Made by a program: the position numbers and the translations under genes. 54,356 nt of DNA. Origin: a virus. Taxonomy: Duplodnaviria > Caudoviricetes. Location: positions 1-54,356 of IMG/VR virus record IMGVR_UViG_3300031949_000049, one strand, 5' to 3'. The notes below the pieces were generated by a model that saw only the letters and a list, made by a program, of their open reading frames with translations, did no database searches and had not been told where the DNA came from. The first letter of the stretch is position 1. Each line of letters starts with the position of its first letter. Below are positions 1,473-48,490 of the stretch, piece by piece.

Positions 1473-2003
1473 GTGCATTACACTGGTTATGTTTATATTT
1501 GGTATGATACGAAAGCTAAATTCTTCTATGTCGGGGGACATAAAGGAAGAACTGGAGATTCGTACATTTGTTCTAGTAAGATATTGAAACACGCTTATAA
1601 ATTGAGACCTCATACTTTTAGATTCAAAGTCTTAGAATATGTTGTTGGCGATATTAGACATCTGAGAGAAGCCGAACAGCGTTGGCTTGATAAAATCAAC
1701 GATAATGAACTCTTCACCTCAGAAAATGTTAAGAACAAAACAACCAGATACTACAACGTAAAGAAACTTTCCACTGGAGGCAATGGTTCGGCCAATAAAG
1801 GAAATTCTAACATAGGTGGTCGAAATAAGGATCATCCAATGTCAGAAGAACAAAAGAAGAAGATTGCTCTCGCCTTGAGAGGAAGAAAACAGTCTCCTGA
1901 ACACATAAAGAATAGACTTTTAAGTCGCCTCAAAGTAGGCCCGTTCTGTTTCGAGGTGGAGCCCATACCCAATAAGACTAAGCGGCTAGCGCCATTGCCC
2001 TAA
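1473..2003 (+). CDS. Seg-like GIY-YIG homing endonuclease with NUMOD3-like tail
   Basis: GYVYIWYD...FYVGGHKG...YICSS, E..WL, YYN; HPMSEEQKKKI..ALRGRKQSPEHI; AT-rich; GTG start just after CATAAATA late-promoter-like box (1461-1468). Confidence 0.85.
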   Translation: MHYTGYVYIWYDTKAKFFYVGGHKGRTGDSYICSSKILKHAYKLRPHTFRFKVLEYVVGDIRHLREAEQRWLDKINDNELFTSENVKNKTTRYYNVKKLSTGGNGSANKGNSNIGGRNKDHPMSEEQKKKIALALRGRKQSPEHIKNRLLSRLKVGPFCFEVEPIPNKTKRLAPLP

Positions 2004-2252
2004 ACGGAGCGTTATCATTCGCTGCGTTTGTAATTGTGACCTGTGACGGAGTCATCCGATAGACCTCCACCCTCTCTTCACACCGAGTCGAATCCTGTTT
2101 CGCCCCCATCAAGAACACACCGAGTTCATCCTTTTTATCATCGCAGTTGCAACTGCGTGGACACAACGAGTGGTCACGGTGTATTCATGGTGGAGGCGTC
2201 GGGTACTGCCCCCGAGTCCTACGGCGATCGCTGAGGGCTTCAACGACCTACA
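1935..2252 (-). ncRNA. ssrA: circularly permuted (two-piece) tmRNA gene, alphaproteobacterial type
   Basis: Acceptor piece ...GACUCGGGGGCAGUACCCGACGCCUCCACCA (ends 2188) precedes coding piece GGGGGCGAAACAGGAUUCGAC (starts 2107); G3-U70 Ala identity; tag (A)ANDNAPFRAMALAA-stop ends 1978; outer ends approximate. Confidence 0.93.
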
Positions 2253-2254
2253 TA

Positions 2255-2287
2255 CTATCTATATACAAAATAAAAGTTCGCGTCAAC
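2255..2287 (-). promoter_or_regulatory. promoter for tmRNA
   Basis: TTGACG-17nt-TATAGA(TA), also resembles the T4 late box. Confidence 0.55.
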
Positions 2288-2318
2288 TACACCCGGGGAG
2301 GCATCCGTATATATACCA

Positions 2319-15593: not shown

Positions 15594-16442
15594 CTAGTTT
15601 TTTTCGGTACTAGCCCAACGACGTTTTGCGGCGTCACTCATCTTTTTTTTGGTGGAATCACTTTTTCTTCTGCCTAATGAAGAAGAACTAAGCTTTTTCT
15701 TTGTTTCATCGGACAATTTTTTGCCTCTTCGATGAGTATTGCCTTTGAGTCGTTCTGACATCTTTTTTCGTTGTTCGAGTGTTTGTGATATTCCACTCCT
15801 GTTAAGCGACATTTTCTGTTTTGAAGCATCTGTGTGTCGATGCCCAAACATCGGGTTCTTATCACCCTTCGTTACTTCAGAGATTTTTGCCTTAAATTCG
15901 GCTGTCTTTGGTTTTTTGTTGGCTATCTTAACAGCAGCTAAGCAAGCATCTGATGGTTTTTTGCCCTTTAAGGCTTCAGATATTTTTCTTCTAGTAGCTT
16001 CTGTTCGCTTACTTCCAGTTTGAGATTCAGCTGAGCGCTTAGACGATTCTATCGTGGCAGCGAAATAGCGCGATAATATGTTTCCATTGTAATAGCGACG
16101 TTCACCAGATTCGGTCTTTTCTTCTAAAACATTTTTAGCAAATAACTCTTTAGTTTCTGCATAATTAGTTAAACCTTTGGTCAGATGAAGGGACAGAATC
16201 CTTCTCTTAAAGATAGCCGCCCCATGTATCTTCACGTCGGCGGCAACTTCTTTGGAAGAACCATAATAGGTTTTCCAGTCAGATTCGACTAACTTACTTC
16301 CTTTTTTTGAAAAAAAGTACTTCCTACCGACATACATTTTGCCGGTAAGTTCGTTCGTGAGTATATACACGAAACCATAGTAACCATTTATTTTGTCTGT
16401 AGTGAATGGTTCAAATTGATAGAACCACGGATTATCATACAT
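15594..16442 (-). CDS. Seg-like GIY-YIG endonuclease with NUMOD3 repeats
   Basis: GFVYILTN..TGKMYVGRK, YYGSS, YYN.NI; repeated (H/L)S.ETK.KMS; AT-rich; TATAAATA at 16447-16454 just upstream. Confidence 0.88.
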   Translation of the reverse strand: MYDNPWFYQFEPFTTDKINGYYGFVYILTNELTGKMYVGRKYFFSKKGSKLVESDWKTYYGSSKEVAADVKIHGAAIFKRRILSLHLTKGLTNYAETKELFAKNVLEEKTESGERRYYNGNILSRYFAATIESSKRSAESQTGSKRTEATRRKISEALKGKKPSDACLAAVKIANKKPKTAEFKAKISEVTKGDKNPMFGHRHTDASKQKMSLNRSGISQTLEQRKKMSERLKGNTHRRGKKLSDETKKKLSSSSLGRRKSDSTKKKMSDAAKRRWASTEKN

Positions 16443-27608: not shown

Positions 27609-27896
27609 TCAATATACCTCGACCACCTTGCCGAACACCTCTATCGTCCACCCATTTATCCGGCCCTTGTTGTTGCCGATGAGGACTCCTCTGGTTGGTT
27701 TTATATCTTTCACTAGGTGGGTGTAGTAGTACTTGCCTACCTTACAGTATACGATGTCGTTGACTTCTACGTCGGTCCACTTCGTCGGACTCAGGCGGTG
27801 TTTCTGGCCCGACTTGATGAGGGGCTCCATGGAGTGACCCCTCTCGGAGGTGATGACATCCTGGCCGGCCTCCAGCTGTTCTCGCTTATTATTCAT
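27609..27896 (-). CDS. S24/S26 peptidase-like domain protein
   Basis: GHSMEPLI.SG, DIV.C, THLV, IGNNKG. Confidence 0.7.
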   Translation of the reverse strand: MNNKREQLEAGQDVITSERGHSMEPLIKSGQKHRLSPTKWTDVEVNDIVYCKVGKYYYTHLVKDIKPTRGVLIGNNKGRINGWTIEVFGKVVEVY

Positions 27897-29121
27897 CGAT
27901 GTCAGACTTCTCCATTATTTTCCCGTGCTCAACGGCCATCACGTCGGAGAAATGGTCAGAGCACTCGACGTAGTCGTTCATATATTCCATCAGACCGGCG
28001 ACGTCGTTGGTGAACAACGTGTCCTCGTCGTCGTCTCCCCTGATCACGAACTCGTCGACGTGGTCGAGACAGGTCAATGCAATGTTCTTCTTGACAGTGA
28101 TTCCAGACGCGGGCCCGTAGTCACTTGCCATGCGCTTTAGGACGTCCTCCTGAAAGAACGCTGTCCTAAATTCGCCCTGCCACTCGTTGTGAACGTTGGT
28201 CTCGTCGCTGAAGTGCGGGATGAATACCTCCCGGTCTTCTATATCTTGTTCATTCTCAAGAGGGCCAGGGCCGTGCCTAGTGACGTATGGGCGGGTGACG
28301 TAGTGCGCCTCGATGTTGTCGACGCCGTAGACCTGCGCCAGCATCGTCGGGTTCCATACACCGGTTTTCGATCTGGTGACGTACGGAAAGTTCTTACTGT
28401 TGTTCTCATCGAGGCCAAGCCCTTGACCACCTTCGAATACAGCCCTGTTGTTGGGGTTCGGCAGGACTGAGAAACTGATCGATGGGTGTTCTATGAGTAC
28501 CTTAGTCTTTTCGCATTCTGGTTCTACCAAGGCTTCTGCCATCTTGACGAAAGCCTTCACCGTTTCCGGGTCGATCTTGTAGCTCAGGAGGCGAGGAACA
28601 TAATAGGTGGTGATCATCCTGGTCATGAAGTCTCTGACTGAACTTATGCTTCCCTCGCAGAGGAAGTCATACATCGTCAGCTCAAAGCCGGCGAGGTTGC
28701 GGGTTACTGTCTCGTTGATGCCGTGCCCACAGGAACCATGGCGCTTGCCACCGCGGTTGGTCTCGAGTACCTGGTTCACCAGCATATCGATGCCGGTCAC
28801 AACCTGACAGTGGGGGGAGATGACGACCATCGGCATCAGCGTAAAGATCTCGTAGAAGGACTTCATCTCCTCGAGTAGGAGTGGTGGATTCACGAGATAC
28901 GTCTGGGCCAGATAGGTGAGTGCACCCCTGGCCGTGCCTGAGCCGAGTTGGCTATGGACGAACCTCTGGCCGTCGTGACCGATGGTGTGCCCGGCCTGGG
29001 CGCCGCCGTTGTGCTTTATCACCGTGCAGTCGGGATCGGCCAGGGCGTATGTGACGCTACCCTTCCCCTCGTCGCCGTAGCTGGCGCCTATGACCGCGTG
29101 TGCCTCCTCGAATAGTCTCAT
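27889..29121 (-). CDS. purA: adenylosuccinate synthetase-like protein (divergent PurA)
   Basis: GASYGDEGKG, NGGAQAGHT, HGSCG.GI, FEGGQG..LD, PYVTRS, TRHG.GP, TCLD. Confidence 0.85.
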   Translation of the reverse strand: MRLFEEAHAVIGASYGDEGKGSVTYALADPDCTVIKHNGGAQAGHTIGHDGQRFVHSQLGSGTARGALTYLAQTYLVNPPLLLEEMKSFYEIFTLMPMVVISPHCQVVTGIDMLVNQVLETNRGGKRHGSCGHGINETVTRNLAGFELTMYDFLCEGSISSVRDFMTRMITTYYVPRLLSYKIDPETVKAFVKMAEALVEPECEKTKVLIEHPSISFSVLPNPNNRAVFEGGQGLGLDENNSKNFPYVTRSKTGVWNPTMLAQVYGVDNIEAHYVTRPYVTRHGPGPLENEQDIEDREVFIPHFSDETNVHNEWQGEFRTAFFQEDVLKRMASDYGPASGITVKKNIALTCLDHVDEFVIRGDDDEDTLFTNDVAGLMEYMNDYVECSDHFSDVMAVEHGKIMEKSDIDE

Positions 29122-35953: not shown

Positions 35954-36146
35954 TGTATATTTCCAATGCCCTCTTGGCGATCTTGCTCCCGCTTCCATTG
36001 CCAGCGGCCATCTCCTTTACACTCTCAACGAAGTCAGTCGAGCCCTCTATATTGACAAGCGCCTTGAGGCTGAGCGCGGCCTGTTGGGCGGCGTGTTCCT
36101 CGAGGTCGGCGATGTCCTTGGCGGTTAGGGTGTAGGGAGTCATCAT
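35940..36146 (-). CDS. hypothetical protein
   Basis: ATGA overlap with ClpB-like gene. Confidence 0.65.
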   Translation of the reverse strand: MMTPYTLTAKDIADLEEHAAQQAALSLKALVNIEGSTDFVESVKEMAAGNGSGSKIAKRALEIYNENL

Positions 36147-38173
36147 CTCGTCACCACGAGGTTAGAAGTAACTGAGTCATAGGCGATGTTGAGCTTGAGC
36201 ACGTCCTCCTCCTTCTTGGCGAGGGCCAGGTCGGCGATCATCGGCTCGAGCGTCGAGCGAAGGTGCCCAGGCAACCCCCTGGCCCCGGTCCGCGGGTCGT
36301 AGTTCTTCTTGCAGAATTTTTGGACTTCTTCCGGTGGGACGTTCAACGAGATGTTCTCGAGAACATAGGCGTCATTGATGAGAGCGGTCTCTCGGAGGAC
36401 GATCTGCTTGATGATGTCGACTCCTAGGGCGAGGAACTGGATGATGTCCTTCCGGCCGCCGAAGCGGTTAAGGAACTCCGGCCGATACGTCTTGTCGAGA
36501 TCCTCGAGCGTCTTTTCCTGTGCCTGGGCCACGGTGAGTTTCTTGTTGAGGTAGTGCTCTTGACCAATGTTGGTCGTGCAGAGGATGTAGGTGTCCTGGA
36601 AAGACACGACCCTGCCGACGTTGTCGGTCAGGCGCCCGTCGCCGAGCACCTGGAGCAATATGTTGAATACGTCCGGATGGGCCTTCTCTATCTCGTCGAA
36701 GAGGACGATGCATACCGGCTGGCGACGGACGGTGTTGGTCAGGATGCCGCCAGCGTCGAATCCCTCGTAGCCTGGAGGGGCACCGATAAGCTTGGCCACG
36801 GCGTGCTTCTCCATGTACTCCGACATGTCGAGTCGGAACAGCGCCTTCTCATCATCGAAGAGATTGGCGGCAAGTGCCTTCGCCATCTCAGTCTTCCCTA
36901 CTCCGGACGGGCCCATGAACATGCAGGCACCCATCGGTCGCCCGTTGTTGCGGCGTCCTATCCTGGACGTCTTGACCATGTTGGCCACGTGCTTGACTGC
37001 CGCGTCCTGGCCGAAGATTCGCCTGCAGAGATTCGCCTCTAGGTTGCGAAGTTTCTCGCGCTCGTCCTCGTTGAGCTTCTCTGCGGGGATGCCGGAGATG
37101 CGGGAGAACTCATTGGTGACCTGGGTCTTGGCAAGCTTGATTCCGGCGTTCACCTTCTTGACTAGGGCGTCGTATCTCGCCTTTTTACCGTCGAGCTCGC
37201 GCTGGACGGCGTCGATCCGCTCTCTTATCGCCTTCTTCGTCGGGTTGTCAATCCCGTTGCCGACGAGCTTGCTGAAGGCGCTGATGCGCTTCTTCTGTCC
37301 GTCGGCCGATGCCTCCAGTCGGGCGTCCTCCGCGGCCATCTCCTCGTTGAGATCGATGAACACGTCTTCCGTCGCCCTGAGCTCAGATGAGATCAGGGCA
37401 AGGGTGTTCTTGTCTTCTTTATTGATGGTGGCGTGGGAGTCCATCCTCCACGTCGCGAAGGCGCGATCGAGCAGATTGACGCTCCTGGTGGGTTGGGCTC
37501 GATTCATGGCTGCCCGATACTTGTTGGTAAGTGATATGGCGGCGGTGATCGCCGACTCCTCGACGCCGAGATGGTGATACCTAGCGAGTGCATCAGCTGA
37601 GTCTGTGACGATCAGCTTGAGTACGTCGTCAGTGGGCTCCCTTATCTCCAGCACGGTGAAGAGCTCGATCATATCCGAGTGTGACTTAATGACGGAGTCG
37701 AACGACTCGTCTTTCACCTCTAGGATCACCTGGGACTCATCGAGCTTTACCATGTTCATGAGGGCGTTGATGAAGTGATCGTACCCGCCGGCCTTGGCGG
37801 CGTTGATGAAGTCAGCCACGTCCTCTATGATGAGGATGGATTCGCTGGTGCTGGCCAGGGCAGACGTTATCTTCTGGAACTCGGAGTTTATGATCTTCGA
37901 GTCGCCGGACGAGAACAGGCCATCCGTGTCGAGCCAGAAGATCCTCTTGCTAGCTATGTCGAATGGTGCTGGATCACTCCTGTTGGCCTTCCAGGCCTGG
38001 AGACCCAGGCAGATGGTGGTGCACCCCACCCCGCCGGGACCGGTCAATATGATGCTGTTCGAGTGCTTCCTCGTGAGGATCGAGGCCATCTCCTTGAGCT
38101 CGGCGGATCGGCCGACACACCGGAAACCGGGCGACTTCTCGAGCCTATCTTCTCCAGAAACGAGATAGTTCAT
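36143..38173 (-). CDS. ClpB/ClpC-like AAA+ ATPase lacking N-domain, degenerate AAA1
   Basis: AAA2: GPSGVGKTE, DMSEY.EKH.V.KLIGAPPGY.G, LFDEIEKAH, GARG; AAA1: GPGGVGCTT, IIED. Confidence 0.9.
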   Translation of the reverse strand: MNYLVSGEDRLEKSPGFRCVGRSAELKEMASILTRKHSNSIILTGPGGVGCTTICLGLQAWKANRSDPAPFDIASKRIFWLDTDGLFSSGDSKIINSEFQKITSALASTSESILIIEDVADFINAAKAGGYDHFINALMNMVKLDESQVILEVKDESFDSVIKSHSDMIELFTVLEIREPTDDVLKLIVTDSADALARYHHLGVEESAITAAISLTNKYRAAMNRAQPTRSVNLLDRAFATWRMDSHATINKEDKNTLALISSELRATEDVFIDLNEEMAAEDARLEASADGQKKRISAFSKLVGNGIDNPTKKAIRERIDAVQRELDGKKARYDALVKKVNAGIKLAKTQVTNEFSRISGIPAEKLNEDEREKLRNLEANLCRRIFGQDAAVKHVANMVKTSRIGRRNNGRPMGACMFMGPSGVGKTEMAKALAANLFDDEKALFRLDMSEYMEKHAVAKLIGAPPGYEGFDAGGILTNTVRRQPVCIVLFDEIEKAHPDVFNILLQVLGDGRLTDNVGRVVSFQDTYILCTTNIGQEHYLNKKLTVAQAQEKTLEDLDKTYRPEFLNRFGGRKDIIQFLALGVDIIKQIVLRETALINDAYVLENISLNVPPEEVQKFCKKNYDPRTGARGLPGHLRSTLEPMIADLALAKKEEDVLKLNIAYDSVTSNLVVTR

Positions 38174-46221: not shown

Positions 46222-46400
46222 ACGGAACTCCGACGAAGTCTGCGGAGTTCTCGGCGAAGGTGCCACCACTCACCGAGGTTGTGTCTCAGCCTCTTGAGAG
46301 CAGCTACGGTCAATGGAAAGTACTTGGACATCACGGCTCCCATCGGATGGTGATGGCTAGAATATACCATGGGAGGAGGAATGTAAATAGGAAAGTTGTT

Positions 46401-46476
46401 TGGCGCGGACGACGGGATTCGAACCCGTGTTTCAAGATTGAGAGTCTAGTTGCCTGTCCAATTAGCAGACGCCCGC
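46401..46476 (-). tRNA. tRNA-Glu(CUC)
   Basis: cloverleaf, loop CUCUCAA, GCCA end. Confidence 0.85.
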
Positions 46477-46490
46477 GTAACGTAGAAGAA

Positions 46491-46565
46491 TGGTACACCT
46501 CCAGGGTATCGAACCCTGTATCCCCACCATGTCGAGGTGATGCTTCGCCATTTAGCTCGAGGTGT
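46491..46565 (-). tRNA. tRNA-Val(GAC)
   Basis: cloverleaf, loop UCGACAU, ACCA. Confidence 0.85.
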
Positions 46566-46566
46566 A

Positions 46567-46641
46567 TGGCTTCAGGTCAAGGATTCGAACCTCGATCGCA
46601 TGGGTTCAGAGCCCAGCAGCTTGCCGTTAGAAGAACCTGAA
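46567..46641 (-). tRNA. tRNA-Gln(CUG)
   Basis: UUCAGGU/ACCUGAA acceptor, loop CUCUGAA, weak D-stem. Confidence 0.8.
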
Positions 46642-46699
46642 AAAGATCTTCACCTCGGAGCTTATCCCGAGATGGCCCTTGGTAGGGTCTTGAGTGGAT

Positions 46700-46707
46700 T
46701 ATTTATA
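46700..46707 (-). promoter_or_regulatory. T4-type late promoter
   Basis: TATAAATA upstream of the Gln/Val/Glu tRNAs. Confidence 0.7.
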
Positions 46708-46714
46708 GAAGTGG

Positions 46715-47650
46715 AAGCTTGGGACTGGCGGGCTTCCGTGTCGATCCTTCGGGCATTATAGCACCTCTTGCTTAGAGAGGTCTTTCTCCCGGCGTCTATC
46801 AATCCCGGCGACGGAGCGCACTGGTGGACAGTAGACCGACGATGTCGCAGTTTTTAGGGTCATGCGGTAGACCCGTCACGGCAGACTATTCCGTTCCTTC
46901 CTCACCGTTAGCCTTGCGAGCTATTCGCCCCCGCTAAGGGACTACGATTTCTCTAGAGCGAACCGACTCGGCCTTGCGAGCTCTGTCGGACTAGGTTACC
47001 CTTGCGGGCCCCAGTGTTAGACAACTTTCACCTACCGTCGAGGTAGACTTTGCGTTTTGTAATGCTCAGCTGGATTCGCACCAGCAAAAGCCTCTGTTCA
47101 AAGAGGTTGACAGCTATTGTCAATGTGCAACCCACCGAGATGTGCTACCTCGACTGCTCCGAATCTTGTTAGACCCAGAATACAGCACACCTTCATGCCT
47201 TTCGCTTGCGACTACTTAGCGATCCTTCGCGAACTCGTCCGGTTTAGCGCCCGACCTCATCCACTCGAACTGGGACCTAGCCCTAGGGTGCTTTACGCCC
47301 TCGGACATCATCCCCTACCCTTTCCCGTCTTGATTAGAGAGTCGGTTAGTTGGAGGACGGCACCACCCGTTTCACTTCCCCCACAAGAGTTCCCGGCAAG
47401 CCGGCTCCTGAGTAGGGTTACGTTTCCAACATCTCTCGTACTCCGTAGGCCCGGCGGTTTTATTGCCGAGCCGCCTGTCACCAGGCCGGGCGAGTTTGCA
47501 TAAGTGGACTATTGCTAGCACCGGTATCGTGGGATTCCCGGTATTGGCTCCATTGCTGGAGTTATCCTTGATGCACCCGAAGGCACACCCTATCCAACCC
47601 GAAGGCTGGAGACGACATCATACTGCCGCGAATTCATTTTAACTTAGTGT
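46715..47650 (-). ncRNA. large ornate ncRNA, GOLLD-like
   Basis: about 930 nt with no credible ORF, own TTGACA-17-TATATA promoter (47660-47687), many UUCG/GCAA hairpins, long-range helix GGUGUGCUG/UAGCACAUC, adjacent to tRNAs; GOLLD identity is from recalled motifs, ends approximate. Confidence 0.75.
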
Positions 47651-47655
47651 ATGGC

Positions 47656-47949
47656 TCATATATATACCTGTCGGTCGTCGGTGTCAACCGGCGACTTGAG
47701 TATTCTTCTGCCCTCTTCTGTCTTGTAAAATCTGATCTGCAAACTCATTGGGGCCACGTCCTCCCTGGTGTACCAGCCGTTCATTATGGCATCCCTCATC
47801 TCTTGGTTTTCTGGAGCGGCGAACGTACGGAAGCCACCGTAGAGGGTCTCGTATTTGAGTAGGTCTTTCATCACCTTCGTTAAGGTCATGCCCCCGTCGG
47901 TGTACGTTAAGCCTATGAAGTTATTAGTGGTTATCATCTGTCGGTGCAT
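47656..47949 (-). CDS. small wHTH-like paralogue family member
   Basis: AIMNGWY...AP...FYKTEEG. Confidence 0.7.
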   Translation of the reverse strand: MHRQMITTNNFIGLTYTDGGMTLTKVMKDLLKYETLYGGFRTFAAPENQEMRDAIMNGWYTREDVAPMSLQIRFYKTEEGRRILKSPVDTDDRQVYI

Positions 47950-48490
47950 CTTTTTTCCTATATCTGGCGGCGAACAGGGCCGCCTTCTTGAGTGACTCCA
48001 TGACGTAGCCGGCGTCTCGATATTTTCCACCACCGTTTTCTGGGAAACCTAGGGCGAACATCGCGGAATTAATATCGAACACCCTGCCCTGGGACCTCCT
48101 ACCTGGGATCTTATCTCCTGAGTGGCCGCAGTCGAAGCCGAACCACCAGATGTCTTCATTCGAGTCGGCGATGTAGTGACTCGGTCCGGACCAAGTCAAC
48201 CCTCCGTGGCACGGGATCAAAGATGCTATCTCTGCCTTTCCCTTCTTCCTACGGTTCCTCATCATGGCAAACGCGTTTAGGATGCCGATATCTTCTATGC
48301 AGGTATTCATGTCGACGTCCCCGTCGACCTCGGCGTTGTAGTCCTTCCCATACCAAGGGTGTTCCCTGGTAACGCCAAAGTAGCCGCACCAGGCGTCAAG
48401 TGGCCCTCTCACCATCACGCAGTCGAGACCGCCGGAGGCGAACTCGATGCGATCAGGCTCGAACAACCATGGGTCGATCCCTGCTACCAT
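47924..48490 (-). CDS. conserved phage hypothetical protein
   Basis: WCGY....HP...HGGLT...WWFGFDCGH.GD. Confidence 0.8.
   Translation of the reverse strand: MVAGIDPWLFEPDRIEFASGGLDCVMVRGPLDAWCGYFGVTREHPWYGKDYNAEVDGDVDMNTCIEDIGILNAFAMMRNRRKKGKAEIASLIPCHGGLTWSGPSHYIADSNEDIWWFGFDCGHSGDKIPGRRSQGRVFDINSAMFALGFPENGGGKYRDAGYVMESLKKAALFAARYRKKDAPTDDNH

What the first reader, a model, noticed from the sequence alone, without database searches (positions are those of the whole stretch)
46715..47650. ~930-nt ornate ncRNA (GOLLD-like) with its own promoter among tRNA genes
Seen: the largest ORF-free stretch in a gene-dense genome, with a sigma70 promoter just upstream. Minus-strand hairpins include UCCAGCC-UUCG-GGUUGGA, GUGCC-UUCG-GGUGC, CUCCA-GCAA-UGGAG, CCC-GCAA-GGG and UAGCUC-GCAA-GGCUA. 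Nested helices such as GGUGUGCUG...UAGCACAUC use G-U pairs that favour the minus strand. Established: GOLLD RNAs are roughly 800-nt phage-associated RNAs near tRNAs with unknown function. The 3' half matches GOLLD motifs as I recall them. The 5' ~400 nt may be a novel domain set, and an alphaproteobacterial T4-like phage is a tractable context for study.
Basis: partly seen in the sequence, partly recalled or inferred. Interest (0 to 1): 0.8.

Follow-up and report, generated by a model that had tools for sequence, protein, structure and literature searches.

The report
Divergent GOLLD RNA in a phage
This ORF-free stretch encodes a GOLLD RNA, a known family of very large structured phage RNAs that build RNA-only cages, here in a diverged copy that standard annotation thresholds would miss.

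Summary
Window ~46716-47652, minus strand, is an ORF-poor stretch with all the quoted hairpins. It has a TTGACA-N17-TATATA promoter and is followed by three tRNA genes.

The 3' half (46716-47193) matches Rfam GOLLD (RF02032) over the whole model at 131.1 bits, E 4e-36. That is below the curated cut-off of 150, so a default scan is silent. Of 50 related viral records searched, 50 have GOLLD and 47 pass the cut-off.

The 5' half is not a new domain set. It aligns with the 5' domains of 46 other viral GOLLDs, whose fold shows strong covariation. Two covariance models built without the window find it at E 2e-11 and 3e-9. Its central part belongs to a minority sub-variant. It also carries two private UUCG hairpins, a linker without a callable tRNA, and an unusual 3'-terminal loop.

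RNA-library contigs of 914 and 915 nt from two studies cover just this element at 90-95% identity, with pair-preserving double changes.

Verdict: a new, diverged member of a known family. By homology it probably forms an RNA cage. Its function is unknown, as for the whole family.

The parts
47682..47687 (-). -35 hexamer TTGACA of the putative promoter
   Evidence: Read from the sequence. It overlaps the 3' end of the upstream ORF, whose stop is at 47658-47656. In 16 of 47 aligned sequences (46 homologues plus the window, which itself does not match), TTGACA-N16-18-TAnnnT lies within 130 nt upstream of the 5' domain.
47659..47664 (-). -10 hexamer TATATA, 17 nt after the -35; predicted start near 47652
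   Evidence: It matches TATAAT at 4 of 6 positions. The tool's scan requires a final T and did not list it. The start site is inferred, not shown.
47194..47634 (-). GOLLD 5' domain (the cap domain in the published structure), a diverged form
   Evidence: nhmmer hits lie directly upstream of the core in 25 loci. The alignment A2 holds 47 distinct sequences and gives 85 pairs, 78 of them with compensatory changes. 93.3% of cells are paired against 34.5-37.2% when partners are slid, and 0 of 500 shuffles reach the observed value. Models built without the window hit 47495-47588 (60.6 bits, E 2.3e-11) and 47196-47316 (51.6 bits, E 2.9e-9). The window fits only 52 of the 85 majority pairs. It fits 83 of 106 pairs in the sub-variant alignment, 46 of 55 in the central part.
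47573..47610 (-). Two UUCG-capped hairpins private to this copy
   Evidence: These columns are gaps in all 46 other sequences of A2. They account for most of the extra length: 451 nt here against 379-411 nt in 45 of the 46 others (L028 has 459).
46716..47193 (-). GOLLD conserved 3' domain (Rfam RF02032 core)
   Evidence: cmscan gives 131.1 bits, E 4.3e-36, model 1-416 of 416, against a gathering score of 150. The genome search gives the same place at E 4.8e-38.
47054..47137 (-). Variable linker inside the core; holds a T-arm-like hairpin GCUGG-UGCGAAU-CCAGC (47085-47069) but no callable tRNA
   Evidence: The position follows from the Rfam alignment. ARAGORN calls a tRNA or tRNA-like fold at this place in 45 of 61 distinct homologous elements, but not in the window. 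The Rfam tRNA model gives no match here at E<=10. The linker aligns with the tRNA-like linkers of L118, L004 and L120. The local fold is not significant (z -1.25).
46642..46674 (-). Terminator-like hairpin (46674-46651) with a U-rich tail, between the RNA and tRNA-Gln
   Evidence: Listed by the scan. Whether it terminates is not shown. The RNA-library contigs end earlier, at 46716-46724.
46401..46641 (-). tRNA-Gln(ctg), tRNA-Val(gac) and tRNA-Glu(ctc) directly downstream
   Evidence: ARAGORN and the Rfam tRNA model.

Best explanation
This is the gene for a GOLLD RNA of an uncultured phage. The phage is probably T4-like and probably infects an alphaproteobacterium.

The RNA is read from the minus strand. 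It probably starts from the TTGACA-N17-TATATA promoter near 47652. Its mature 3' end lies near 46716, giving about 0.94 kb.

It has the family's two-domain build:
- a less conserved 5' domain (47634-47194);
- the conserved 3' domain (47193-46716), interrupted by a variable linker.

By homology with the GOLLD RNA solved by cryo-EM, the most likely mode of action is self-assembly of many copies into a closed RNA-only cage. In that cage the 5' domains form the caps, the 3' domains form the rings, and the linkers point inward. The RNA would be made during phage infection as part of the phage's tRNA/tmRNA island.

What is shown and what is inferred:
- Shown here: family membership, the conserved folds of both domains, and the presence of near-identical RNA-sized contigs in RNA libraries.
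- Inferred: the start site, cage formation (my odds about 0.6 for this copy) and any role in translation or tRNA handling.
- The biological function is unknown for the whole family.
For: FAMILY MATCH
- The hit to RF02032 is full length, with E 4.3e-36 and 4.8e-38. No other large-RNA family matches at E<=10.
- I searched 50 viral records. I chose them because their loci matched the window's core by nhmmer. All 50 have a full-length GOLLD and 47 of 50 exceed the cut-off. These include the nearest relatives L004 (197.2 bits) and L016 (202.6 bits).
- The cultured Ruegeria phages DSS3P8 and V10 score 150.7 and 151.4 bits.

5' DOMAIN
- The fold of the 5' domain shows strong covariation across 47 distinct sequences.
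- The window is found by two models built without it.
- Its central part fits a sub-variant fold that has 54 compensatory pairs of 106 among 7 sequences.

CONTEXT TYPICAL OF THE FAMILY
- The record holds 16 tRNA genes and a tmRNA, and three tRNAs follow the RNA directly.
- The papers describe GOLLD as phage or prophage RNAs near tRNA islands, sometimes with a tRNA or pseudo-tRNA in the linker (passages only).

EXPRESSION HINT
- In four RNA-labelled runs from four studies, contigs at 90-95% identity cover only the element.
- X3 gives a 914-nt contig on 46716-47621. X5 gives a 915-nt contig on 46748-47617.
- Depth is zero over the tRNAs (46300-46698) and over the upstream ORF (47668-48000).
- The differences include pair-preserving double changes at 47241/47252, 46809/46818, 46810/46817 and 47038/47153.

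CAGE
- Cage formation, the two separate domains and the inward linker are reported for GOLLD env-38.
Against: - The score is below Rfam's curated cut-off (131.1 against 150), so the default scan reports nothing.
- The window fits only 52 of 85 pairs of the majority 5' fold. That is the second-lowest of 47 sequences.
- The 3'-terminal loop reads CCAGUCCCA. In 48 of 51 homologues with enough 3' sequence it reads U(A/U)(A/U)UCUCA. The paper gives the last loop, L27, many tertiary contacts. My mapping of this loop to L27 is an inference.
- The linker has lost a recognisable tRNA.
- These deviations could change or abolish assembly.
- The whole-molecule fold energy is not significant (z -1.57).
- The RNA evidence consists of assembled contigs from relatives, not from this phage. 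Contigs cannot give strand, ends or level, and RNA libraries can hold DNA (the tool's own caveats).
- The -10 hexamer lacks the usual final T.
- Two cultured phages that share proteins with this one, Atu_ph07 and RHph_I1_18, have no GOLLD match.
Confidence: 0.9

Rival explanations
1. A decaying, no longer functional GOLLD relic. On this reading the gene is eroding: low model score, lost linker tRNA and an altered terminal loop.
For: The score is 131.1 bits, below the 163-213.7 bits of the 49 viral records that pass the cut-off of 52 searched. No tRNA is callable in the linker, against 45 of 61 homologues. The terminal loop deviates in the window and in only 2 of the 50 homologues examined.
Against: Relatives at 90-95% identity in RNA libraries differ by pair-preserving double changes, which points to selection on the fold. 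All helices of the Rfam model are matched end to end. Both ends of the 5' domain score well with independent models. The promoter-like site is intact. 16 of 61 homologues also lack a callable linker tRNA.
Confidence: 0.05
2. Chiefly a cis-acting 5' leader of the downstream tRNA operon rather than a free-standing RNA. On this reading one transcript runs through Gln-Val-Glu, and the structured part governs tRNA processing or storage.
For: tRNA-Gln starts 75 nt after the core. 24 of 61 homologous elements have a tRNA within +400 to +760 of the core start. The terminator-like site is weak, with the U-run 5 nt after the stem. A review raises an 'inhibited storage' idea for embedded tRNAs (passage).
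Against: The RNA-library contigs stop at 46716-46724 in three runs and do not reach the tRNAs. 37 of 61 elements have no tRNA called downstream, although some were cut short by contig ends. Co-transcription followed by processing would also be compatible with the main explanation.
Confidence: 0.1
3. A new large-RNA class unrelated to GOLLD.
For: The default Rfam scan at gathering thresholds reports no GOLLD.
Against: The permissive scan gives E 4.3e-36 over model positions 1-416 of 416. A continuous series of homologues connects the window to copies above the cut-off.
Confidence: 0.01
4. A protein-coding region: the 128-aa TTG ORF on the plus strand at 47117-47503, or small minus-strand ORFs.
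For: The ORFs exist mechanically.
Against: None of the four ORFs tested has a Pfam hit. The conservation pattern across homologues is one of paired, compensatory changes, not of codons.
Confidence: 0.01

Closest known systems
GOLLD RNA (Rfam RF02032; first described by the Breaker laboratory; env-38 solved by cryo-EM, Kretsch et al. 2025, PMC12286853, passages read)
   Same: Size of about 0.9 kb. A two-domain build, with a less conserved 5' domain and a conserved 3' domain. A variable linker inside the 3' domain. A phage location next to tRNA genes. A full-length match of the 3' domain.
   Different: The score is below the curated cut-off. There are insertions in the linker and in a 3' hairpin (alignment). 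The 3'-terminal loop is CCAGUCCCA instead of UAAUCUCA. The 5' domain carries two extra UUCG hairpins.
Unannotated GOLLD of Roseobacter phage DSS3P8 (KT870145) and Ruegeria phage vB_RpoS-V10 (MH015255)
   Same: These are the only records of the phage collection that match the window's element by blastn. Both phages infect an alphaproteobacterium. In both, the GOLLD is followed by a tRNA and lies near an alpha-type tmRNA. Blocks of the 5' domain are shared.
   Different: They score 150.7 and 151.4 bits, just above the cut-off. Their tmRNA follows directly, whereas in the window it lies about 44 kb away. Overall similarity is low: blastn aligned only 9% of the query at 78% identity. They lack the window's two UUCG hairpins.
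Sub-variant GOLLDs on uncultured contigs L004, L076/L120, L114, L115, L116 and L118
   Same: They share the central 5'-domain motifs TGGTGCYGNCCTC ... GGGAAAGGGTAG and the fold of that section. L118 has the same UGCGAAU T-loop in its linker.
   Different: L004, L114 and L115 score 197-214 bits. The linkers of L004, L120, L116 and L118 look tRNA-like by eye, but ARAGORN called none in L004 or L076 and was not run on the rest. They keep the TAATCTCA or TATTCTCA terminal loop.
Mycobacterial GOLLD with an embedded pseudo-tRNA (PMC6582537; PMC12990946; passages read)
   Same: A GOLLD inside a tRNA cluster, with a degenerate tRNA in the linker (J13/15).
   Different: The host is an actinobacterium and the setting is a chromosomal tRNA cluster that the authors attribute to horizontal transfer, probably of phage origin. 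I made no sequence comparison.
ROOL RNA
   Same: A large phage-associated RNA near tRNA genes that also forms a cage.
   Different: No sequence or structure match: no ROOL hit at E<=10.

Membership tests
GOLLD (RF02032) | Significant, end-to-end match to the covariance model of the conserved 3' domain | tested here: met
   131.1 bits, E 4.3e-36, model 1-416 of 416, window 46716-47193, minus strand. Confirmed at E 4.8e-38.
GOLLD (RF02032) | Score at or above Rfam's curated gathering cut-off of 150 bits. This is an operational annotation threshold, not a structural feature. | tested here: not met
   131.1 bits against 150. 47 of the 50 related records searched pass, and so do the nearest relatives. 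I therefore file it as a member by homology and note that default pipelines will miss it.
GOLLD (RF02032) | A 5' domain of about 400 nt, homologous to the 5' domains of other GOLLDs, directly upstream of the core | tested here: met
   Models R1 and R2, built from 45 other viral GOLLDs, hit 47495-47588 (E 2.3e-11) and 47196-47316 (E 2.9e-9). The fold covaries. The central part fits the sub-variant fold at 46 of 55 pairs. It was not compared with the published env-38 5' domain.
GOLLD (RF02032) | A variable linker within the 3' domain, in some members a tRNA or pseudo-tRNA | tested here: met
   A linker of about 84 nt lies at 47137-47054 (alignment). A tRNA is not callable there. A T-arm-like hairpin remains.
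GOLLD (RF02032) | Phage or prophage location near tRNA genes | tested here: met
   The window is a virus record. It holds 16 tRNA genes, three of them directly downstream.
GOLLD (RF02032) | Expressed as a discrete large RNA, rising during phage lysis | tested here: inconclusive
   RNA-library contigs of 914 and 915 nt from relatives are co-extensive with the element. Contigs give no strand, level or timing, and none comes from this phage itself.
GOLLD (RF02032) | Homo-oligomeric RNA-only cage | not testable with these tools
   Known for env-38 (a 14-mer) and for a Streptococcus 3' domain (8-, 10- and 12-mers). I could not check the contact residues because I lacked the reference sequence and its numbering.
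ROOL | Match to the ROOL covariance model | tested here: not met
   No ROOL hit at E<=10 in 46600-47750.
tRNA (for the linker) | Cloverleaf recognised by ARAGORN or by Rfam RF00005 | tested here: not met
   Nothing is called in 47054-47137.

The most novel reading that the evidence does not exclude
The window may represent a distinct soil and sediment lineage of GOLLD RNAs in phages of alphaproteobacteria. In this lineage the linker tRNA has decayed to a T-arm stub, the cap domain carries two extra UUCG hairpins, and the most conserved terminal loop has changed together with its partner. Such a copy might assemble into a cage of different stoichiometry or cargo than the solved 14-mer. It would then be a natural test of which contacts set cage size and of whether the enclosed tRNA matters.
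Probability: 0.2. Interest if true: 0.5.

Novelty: new member of a known kind. Interest (0 to 1): 0.35.

Why it matters
GOLLD is one of the largest bacterial or phage RNAs of unknown function, and it was recently shown to build RNA-only cages.

This copy adds three modest points:
- The curated Rfam threshold misses diverged members. The window scores 131 bits, and 3 of the 50 relatives searched also fall below the cut-off (one of these three matches is cut by the end of its record). Surveys that use default settings therefore undercount the family.
- The 5' domain, which Rfam does not model, is conserved and covaries across dozens of viral contigs. It can be modelled. The two small models built here already find a diverged member.
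- Two cultured Ruegeria phages with a genetically workable host carry an unannotated GOLLD next to a tmRNA. They offer a practical system for the open question of what GOLLD does.

None of this changes what is known about the family.

Tried and rejected
SEARCHES THAT FOUND NOTHING
- Two specific DNA patterns from the core found nothing in viral contigs.
- A generic core pattern then gave 110 stretches.

REJECTED READINGS
- ROOL or any other Rfam family: no match.
- A functional tRNA in the window's linker: not called, and the local fold has z -1.25.
- Protein-coding: four overlapping ORFs have no Pfam hit.

UNINFORMATIVE
- Whole-molecule MFE z-scores. MFE pairings are unreliable for some of the differences. 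For two pairs (46764/46780 and 46766/46778) I paired the local hairpin ACCUCUC/GAGGU by hand.

RELATED CULTURED PHAGES
- Atu_ph07 and RHph_I1_18 share proteins with the window but have no GOLLD match.

SEQUENCING RUNS
- RNA runs X2, X4, X7 and X9-X15 hold small shares of the sampled words. I did not lay them, so I draw nothing from them.
- Depth figures are per contig and say nothing about expression level.
- One 257-nt X3 contig shares only 34 nt with the element and is probably unrelated.

SIDE LEAD
- The PurZ idea for 27889-29121: the adjacent ORFs gave only methyltransferase hits, with no HD or MazG domains.

ROWS DROPPED
- One search took 50 of the 58 handles I had listed. I left out L101, L010, L046, L076, L084, L088, L073 and L106, which had the lowest nhmmer scores or were cut by contig ends.
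- A2 used 47 distinct sequences of the 56 that had a full 520-nt upstream flank.
- R1 and R2 left out the window by design, and L028 as the most gappy row.

NOT SEEN
- Supplements are closed. Kretsch et al.'s Supplementary Files 1-3 and Table 3 (GOLLD alignments) may already list this 5' sub-variant or the terminal-loop contacts. I could not see them.

RECALLED, NOT FROM ANY CALL
- The Sinorhizobium sigma-70 consensus CTTGAC-N17-CTATAT, which the window's promoter would fit better than it fits the E. coli one.
- The attribution of the first GOLLD description to Weinberg et al. 2009.

Full report
WHAT IS THERE

Window 46270-47655 is the longest stretch of the minus strand, on which the genes mostly lie, without an ORF of at least 60 or 80 aa. 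The stretch holds three tRNA genes: Gln 46567-46641, Val 46491-46565 and Glu 46401-46476. It also holds about 1 kb that carries no gene call.

Upstream, TTGACA (47687-47682) is followed after 17 nt by TATATA (47664-47659). This site overlaps the end of the preceding ORF, whose stop is at 47658-47656. The tool's promoter scan did not list the site because it requires a T at the last -10 position. A terminator-like hairpin with a U-rich tail lies at 46674-46642. The ORFs that overlap the stretch have no Pfam hits.

IDENTITY OF THE 3' HALF

At Rfam's gathering thresholds the whole window yields only a tmRNA and tRNAs. With E-value reporting on 46600-47750, the GOLLD model RF02032 matches 46716-47193 on the minus strand. 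The match covers model positions 1-416 of 416 at 131.1 bits, E 4.3e-36, against a cut-off of 150. Nothing else of note matches, and there is no ROOL hit. The genome search gives the same place. The alignment shows why the score is low. There are insertions in the linker and in a 3' hairpin, a longer variable hairpin (33 nt against 17), and a changed terminal loop.

RELATIVES

The window is a viral contig of 54,356 b, estimated 31% complete.

In the phage collection only Roseobacter phage DSS3P8 and Ruegeria phage vB_RpoS-V10 match the element by blastn. In both, a 2.1-kb unannotated gap among tRNA genes holds a GOLLD (150.7 and 151.4 bits), then a tRNA, then an alpha-type tmRNA.

A generic core pattern found 110 stretches in viral contigs. 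The window's core hits 70 of them by nhmmer. I searched the full records behind 50 of these loci with RF02032. All 50 have a full-length match and 47 of 50 exceed the cut-off, including the nearest relatives L004 and L016.

THE 5' HALF

[quoted passage not shown] Rfam models only the 3' region.

- The window's 5' half (47194-47655) hits 25 loci by nhmmer, always directly upstream of their core and on the same strand.
- An alignment of 47 distinct 5' domains gives an RNAalifold consensus of 85 pairs, 78 of them with compensatory changes.
- On that alignment 93.3% of cells are paired, against 34.5-37.2% when partners are slid by 1-3 columns. None of 500 shuffles reaches the observed covariation.
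- The window itself fits only 52 of the 85 pairs. The misfits lie mainly in the central section.
- That section shares motifs with a minority of contigs. In an alignment of seven such sequences the consensus has 106 pairs, 54 of them compensatory. There 93.0% of cells are paired against 36-42% slid. The window fits 83 of 106 pairs, and 46 of 55 in the central part.
- The helix topology of this section looks the same as in the majority form (my reading).
- As a test free of circularity, I built two covariance models from 45 other sequences without the window. They find the window at 47495-47588 (60.6 bits, E 2.3e-11) and at 47196-47316 (51.6 bits, E 2.9e-9). The next best hit has E 0.47.

So the 5' half is the family's 5' domain in diverged form. 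The private features are two UUCG hairpins (47610-47573), which are absent from all 46 other sequences.

THE LINKER

ARAGORN calls a tRNA or tRNA-like fold inside the linker in 45 of 61 distinct homologous elements, at +63 to +145 from the core start. Seven of these have abnormal anticodon loops. Embedded tRNAs and pseudo-tRNAs are already described for GOLLD.

The window has none callable. It keeps a T-arm-like hairpin with loop UGCGAAU (47085-47069). That hairpin aligns with the tRNA-like linker of L118.

THE TERMINAL LOOP

Of 51 elements with enough 3' sequence (the window and 50 homologues), 48 have U(A/U)(A/U)UCUCA in the terminal loop. The window has CAGUCCCA and is one of three exceptions. 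The paper gives the last loop many tertiary contacts. My mapping of the window's loop to that loop is an inference, and the consequence is unknown.

EXPRESSION

One DNA run labelled as a soil metagenome holds the whole stretch and may be its source. Ten RNA-labelled runs hold 6-13% of the sampled words.

I laid four of them, from four studies, at 90% likeness on 46300-48000:
- X3 (freshwater sediment) has a 914-nt contig, of which 912 letters lie on 46716-47621.
- X5 (soil) has a 915-nt contig on 46748-47617. It continues into an Illumina adapter at one end and into 24 diverged letters at the other.
- X6 and X8 have shorter pieces inside the element.
- No run has depth over the tRNAs (46300-46698) or over the upstream ORF (47668-48000).

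The contigs differ from the window at about 6-7% of positions. Several differences are double changes that keep a pair. This fits a discrete RNA of about 0.9 kb made by close relatives of this phage and kept under selection for its fold. It is not proof. Contigs give no strand or level, and RNA libraries can hold DNA.

CONTEXT

The record encodes an alpha-type two-piece tmRNA and 16 tRNAs. Its proteins include the following:
- a ribonucleotide reductase and a ClpB/Lon-like ATPase; the ATPase is closest, at 46% identity, to that of Agrobacterium phage Atu_ph07;
- a T4 gp61-type primase, 37% identical to those of T4-like cyanophages;
- a protein closest to those of Agrobacterium, Sinorhizobium and Rhizobium phages.

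A T4-like phage of an alphaproteobacterium is therefore a fair description. No structural gene lies in the window to confirm it. Atu_ph07 and Rhizobium phage RHph_I1_18 have no GOLLD match.

HOW IT MOST LIKELY WORKS

The RNA is probably transcribed from its own promoter, and its 3' end lies near 46716. By homology with the solved GOLLD, many copies would assemble into a closed cage. The 5' domains form the caps, the 3' domains form the rings, and the linker faces inward.

What the cage does is unknown. The papers suggest encapsulation of tRNAs or other molecules, ribosome binding, or storage of an embedded tRNA. I put about 0.95 on family membership, about 0.6 on cage formation by this diverged copy, and I make no firm claim about the cellular role.

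NOVELTY

This is a new, diverged member of a known family. In the library searched, no paper holds DSS3P8 or vB_RpoS-V10 together with 'GOLLD RNA' (listing only). The GOLLD of those cultured phages therefore appears unreported there. Subscription journals and supplements were not covered.

WHAT I SAW OF EACH PAPER
- PMC12286853: passages from a term search.
- PMC12990946: passages.
- PMC6582537: passages.
- All other papers: search listings only.

Noticed in passing
window 1887-2290 (-): The phage encodes a two-piece alpha-type tmRNA. Rfam alpha_tmRNA gives 85.7 bits, and ARAGORN reads the tag peptide AANDNAPFRAMALAA. This points to an alphaproteobacterial host.
   Followed up: no
L002 3041-4031 and L003 3041-4036 (KT870145, MH015255): The cultured Ruegeria phages DSS3P8 and vB_RpoS-V10 have a GOLLD (150.7 and 151.4 bits), a tRNA and an alpha-type tmRNA in a 2.1-kb stretch. 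That stretch carries no annotation in the records.
   Followed up: partly
linkers of loci L006-L112, +63 to +145 from each core start: 45 of 61 distinct viral GOLLD elements have an ARAGORN-called tRNA or tRNA-like fold in the linker. The anticodons recur: Lys ctt 12, Leu tag 8, Arg tct 7, Ser tga 6, Lys ttt 2, and one each of Gly, His and 'SeC'. Seven have abnormal anticodon loops.
   Followed up: partly
window 46716-46745 (-): The 3'-terminal loop reads CCAGUCCCA, where 48 of the 51 elements examined have U(A/U)(A/U)UCUCA. By eye, the UCUC-to-UCCC change is matched by GAGG-to-CGGG in the helix strand near 46797-46790 (alignment). This could be a linked change, but I did not test it.
   Followed up: partly
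alignment A2 columns 12-17 with 170-175; window about 47623-47618 with about 47503-47498: The loop of the first 5' hairpin (GCAUAG) covaries with a downstream CUAUGC (helix 1). The local hairpin stem also appears to covary (by eye) and is the fold that RNAalifold chose. This suggests a hairpin-loop pseudoknot in the 5' domain.
   Followed up: partly
window 27889-29121 (-): An adenylosuccinate-synthetase-like gene (Pfam PF00709, E 6e-36). Its best PHROG is labelled '2-aminooxy adenylosuccinate synthetase', which suggests PurZ. The neighbouring ORFs gave only methyltransferase domains, with no HD or MazG.
   Followed up: partly
window 36143-38173 (-): A 676-aa ClpB/Lon-like ATPase, 46% identical to that of the Agrobacterium jumbo phage Atu_ph07.
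   Followed up: no
window 15594-16442 (-): One ORF hits both an 'NAD synthetase' PHROG (residues 2-133) and homing-endonuclease PHROGs. It may be a fusion or an endonuclease insertion.
   Followed up: no
window 46845-46878: A 257-nt contig of RNA run X3, with the highest depth laid (71.7), shares only these 34 nt with the element and runs on into unlike sequence on both sides. Its origin is unknown.
   Followed up: no
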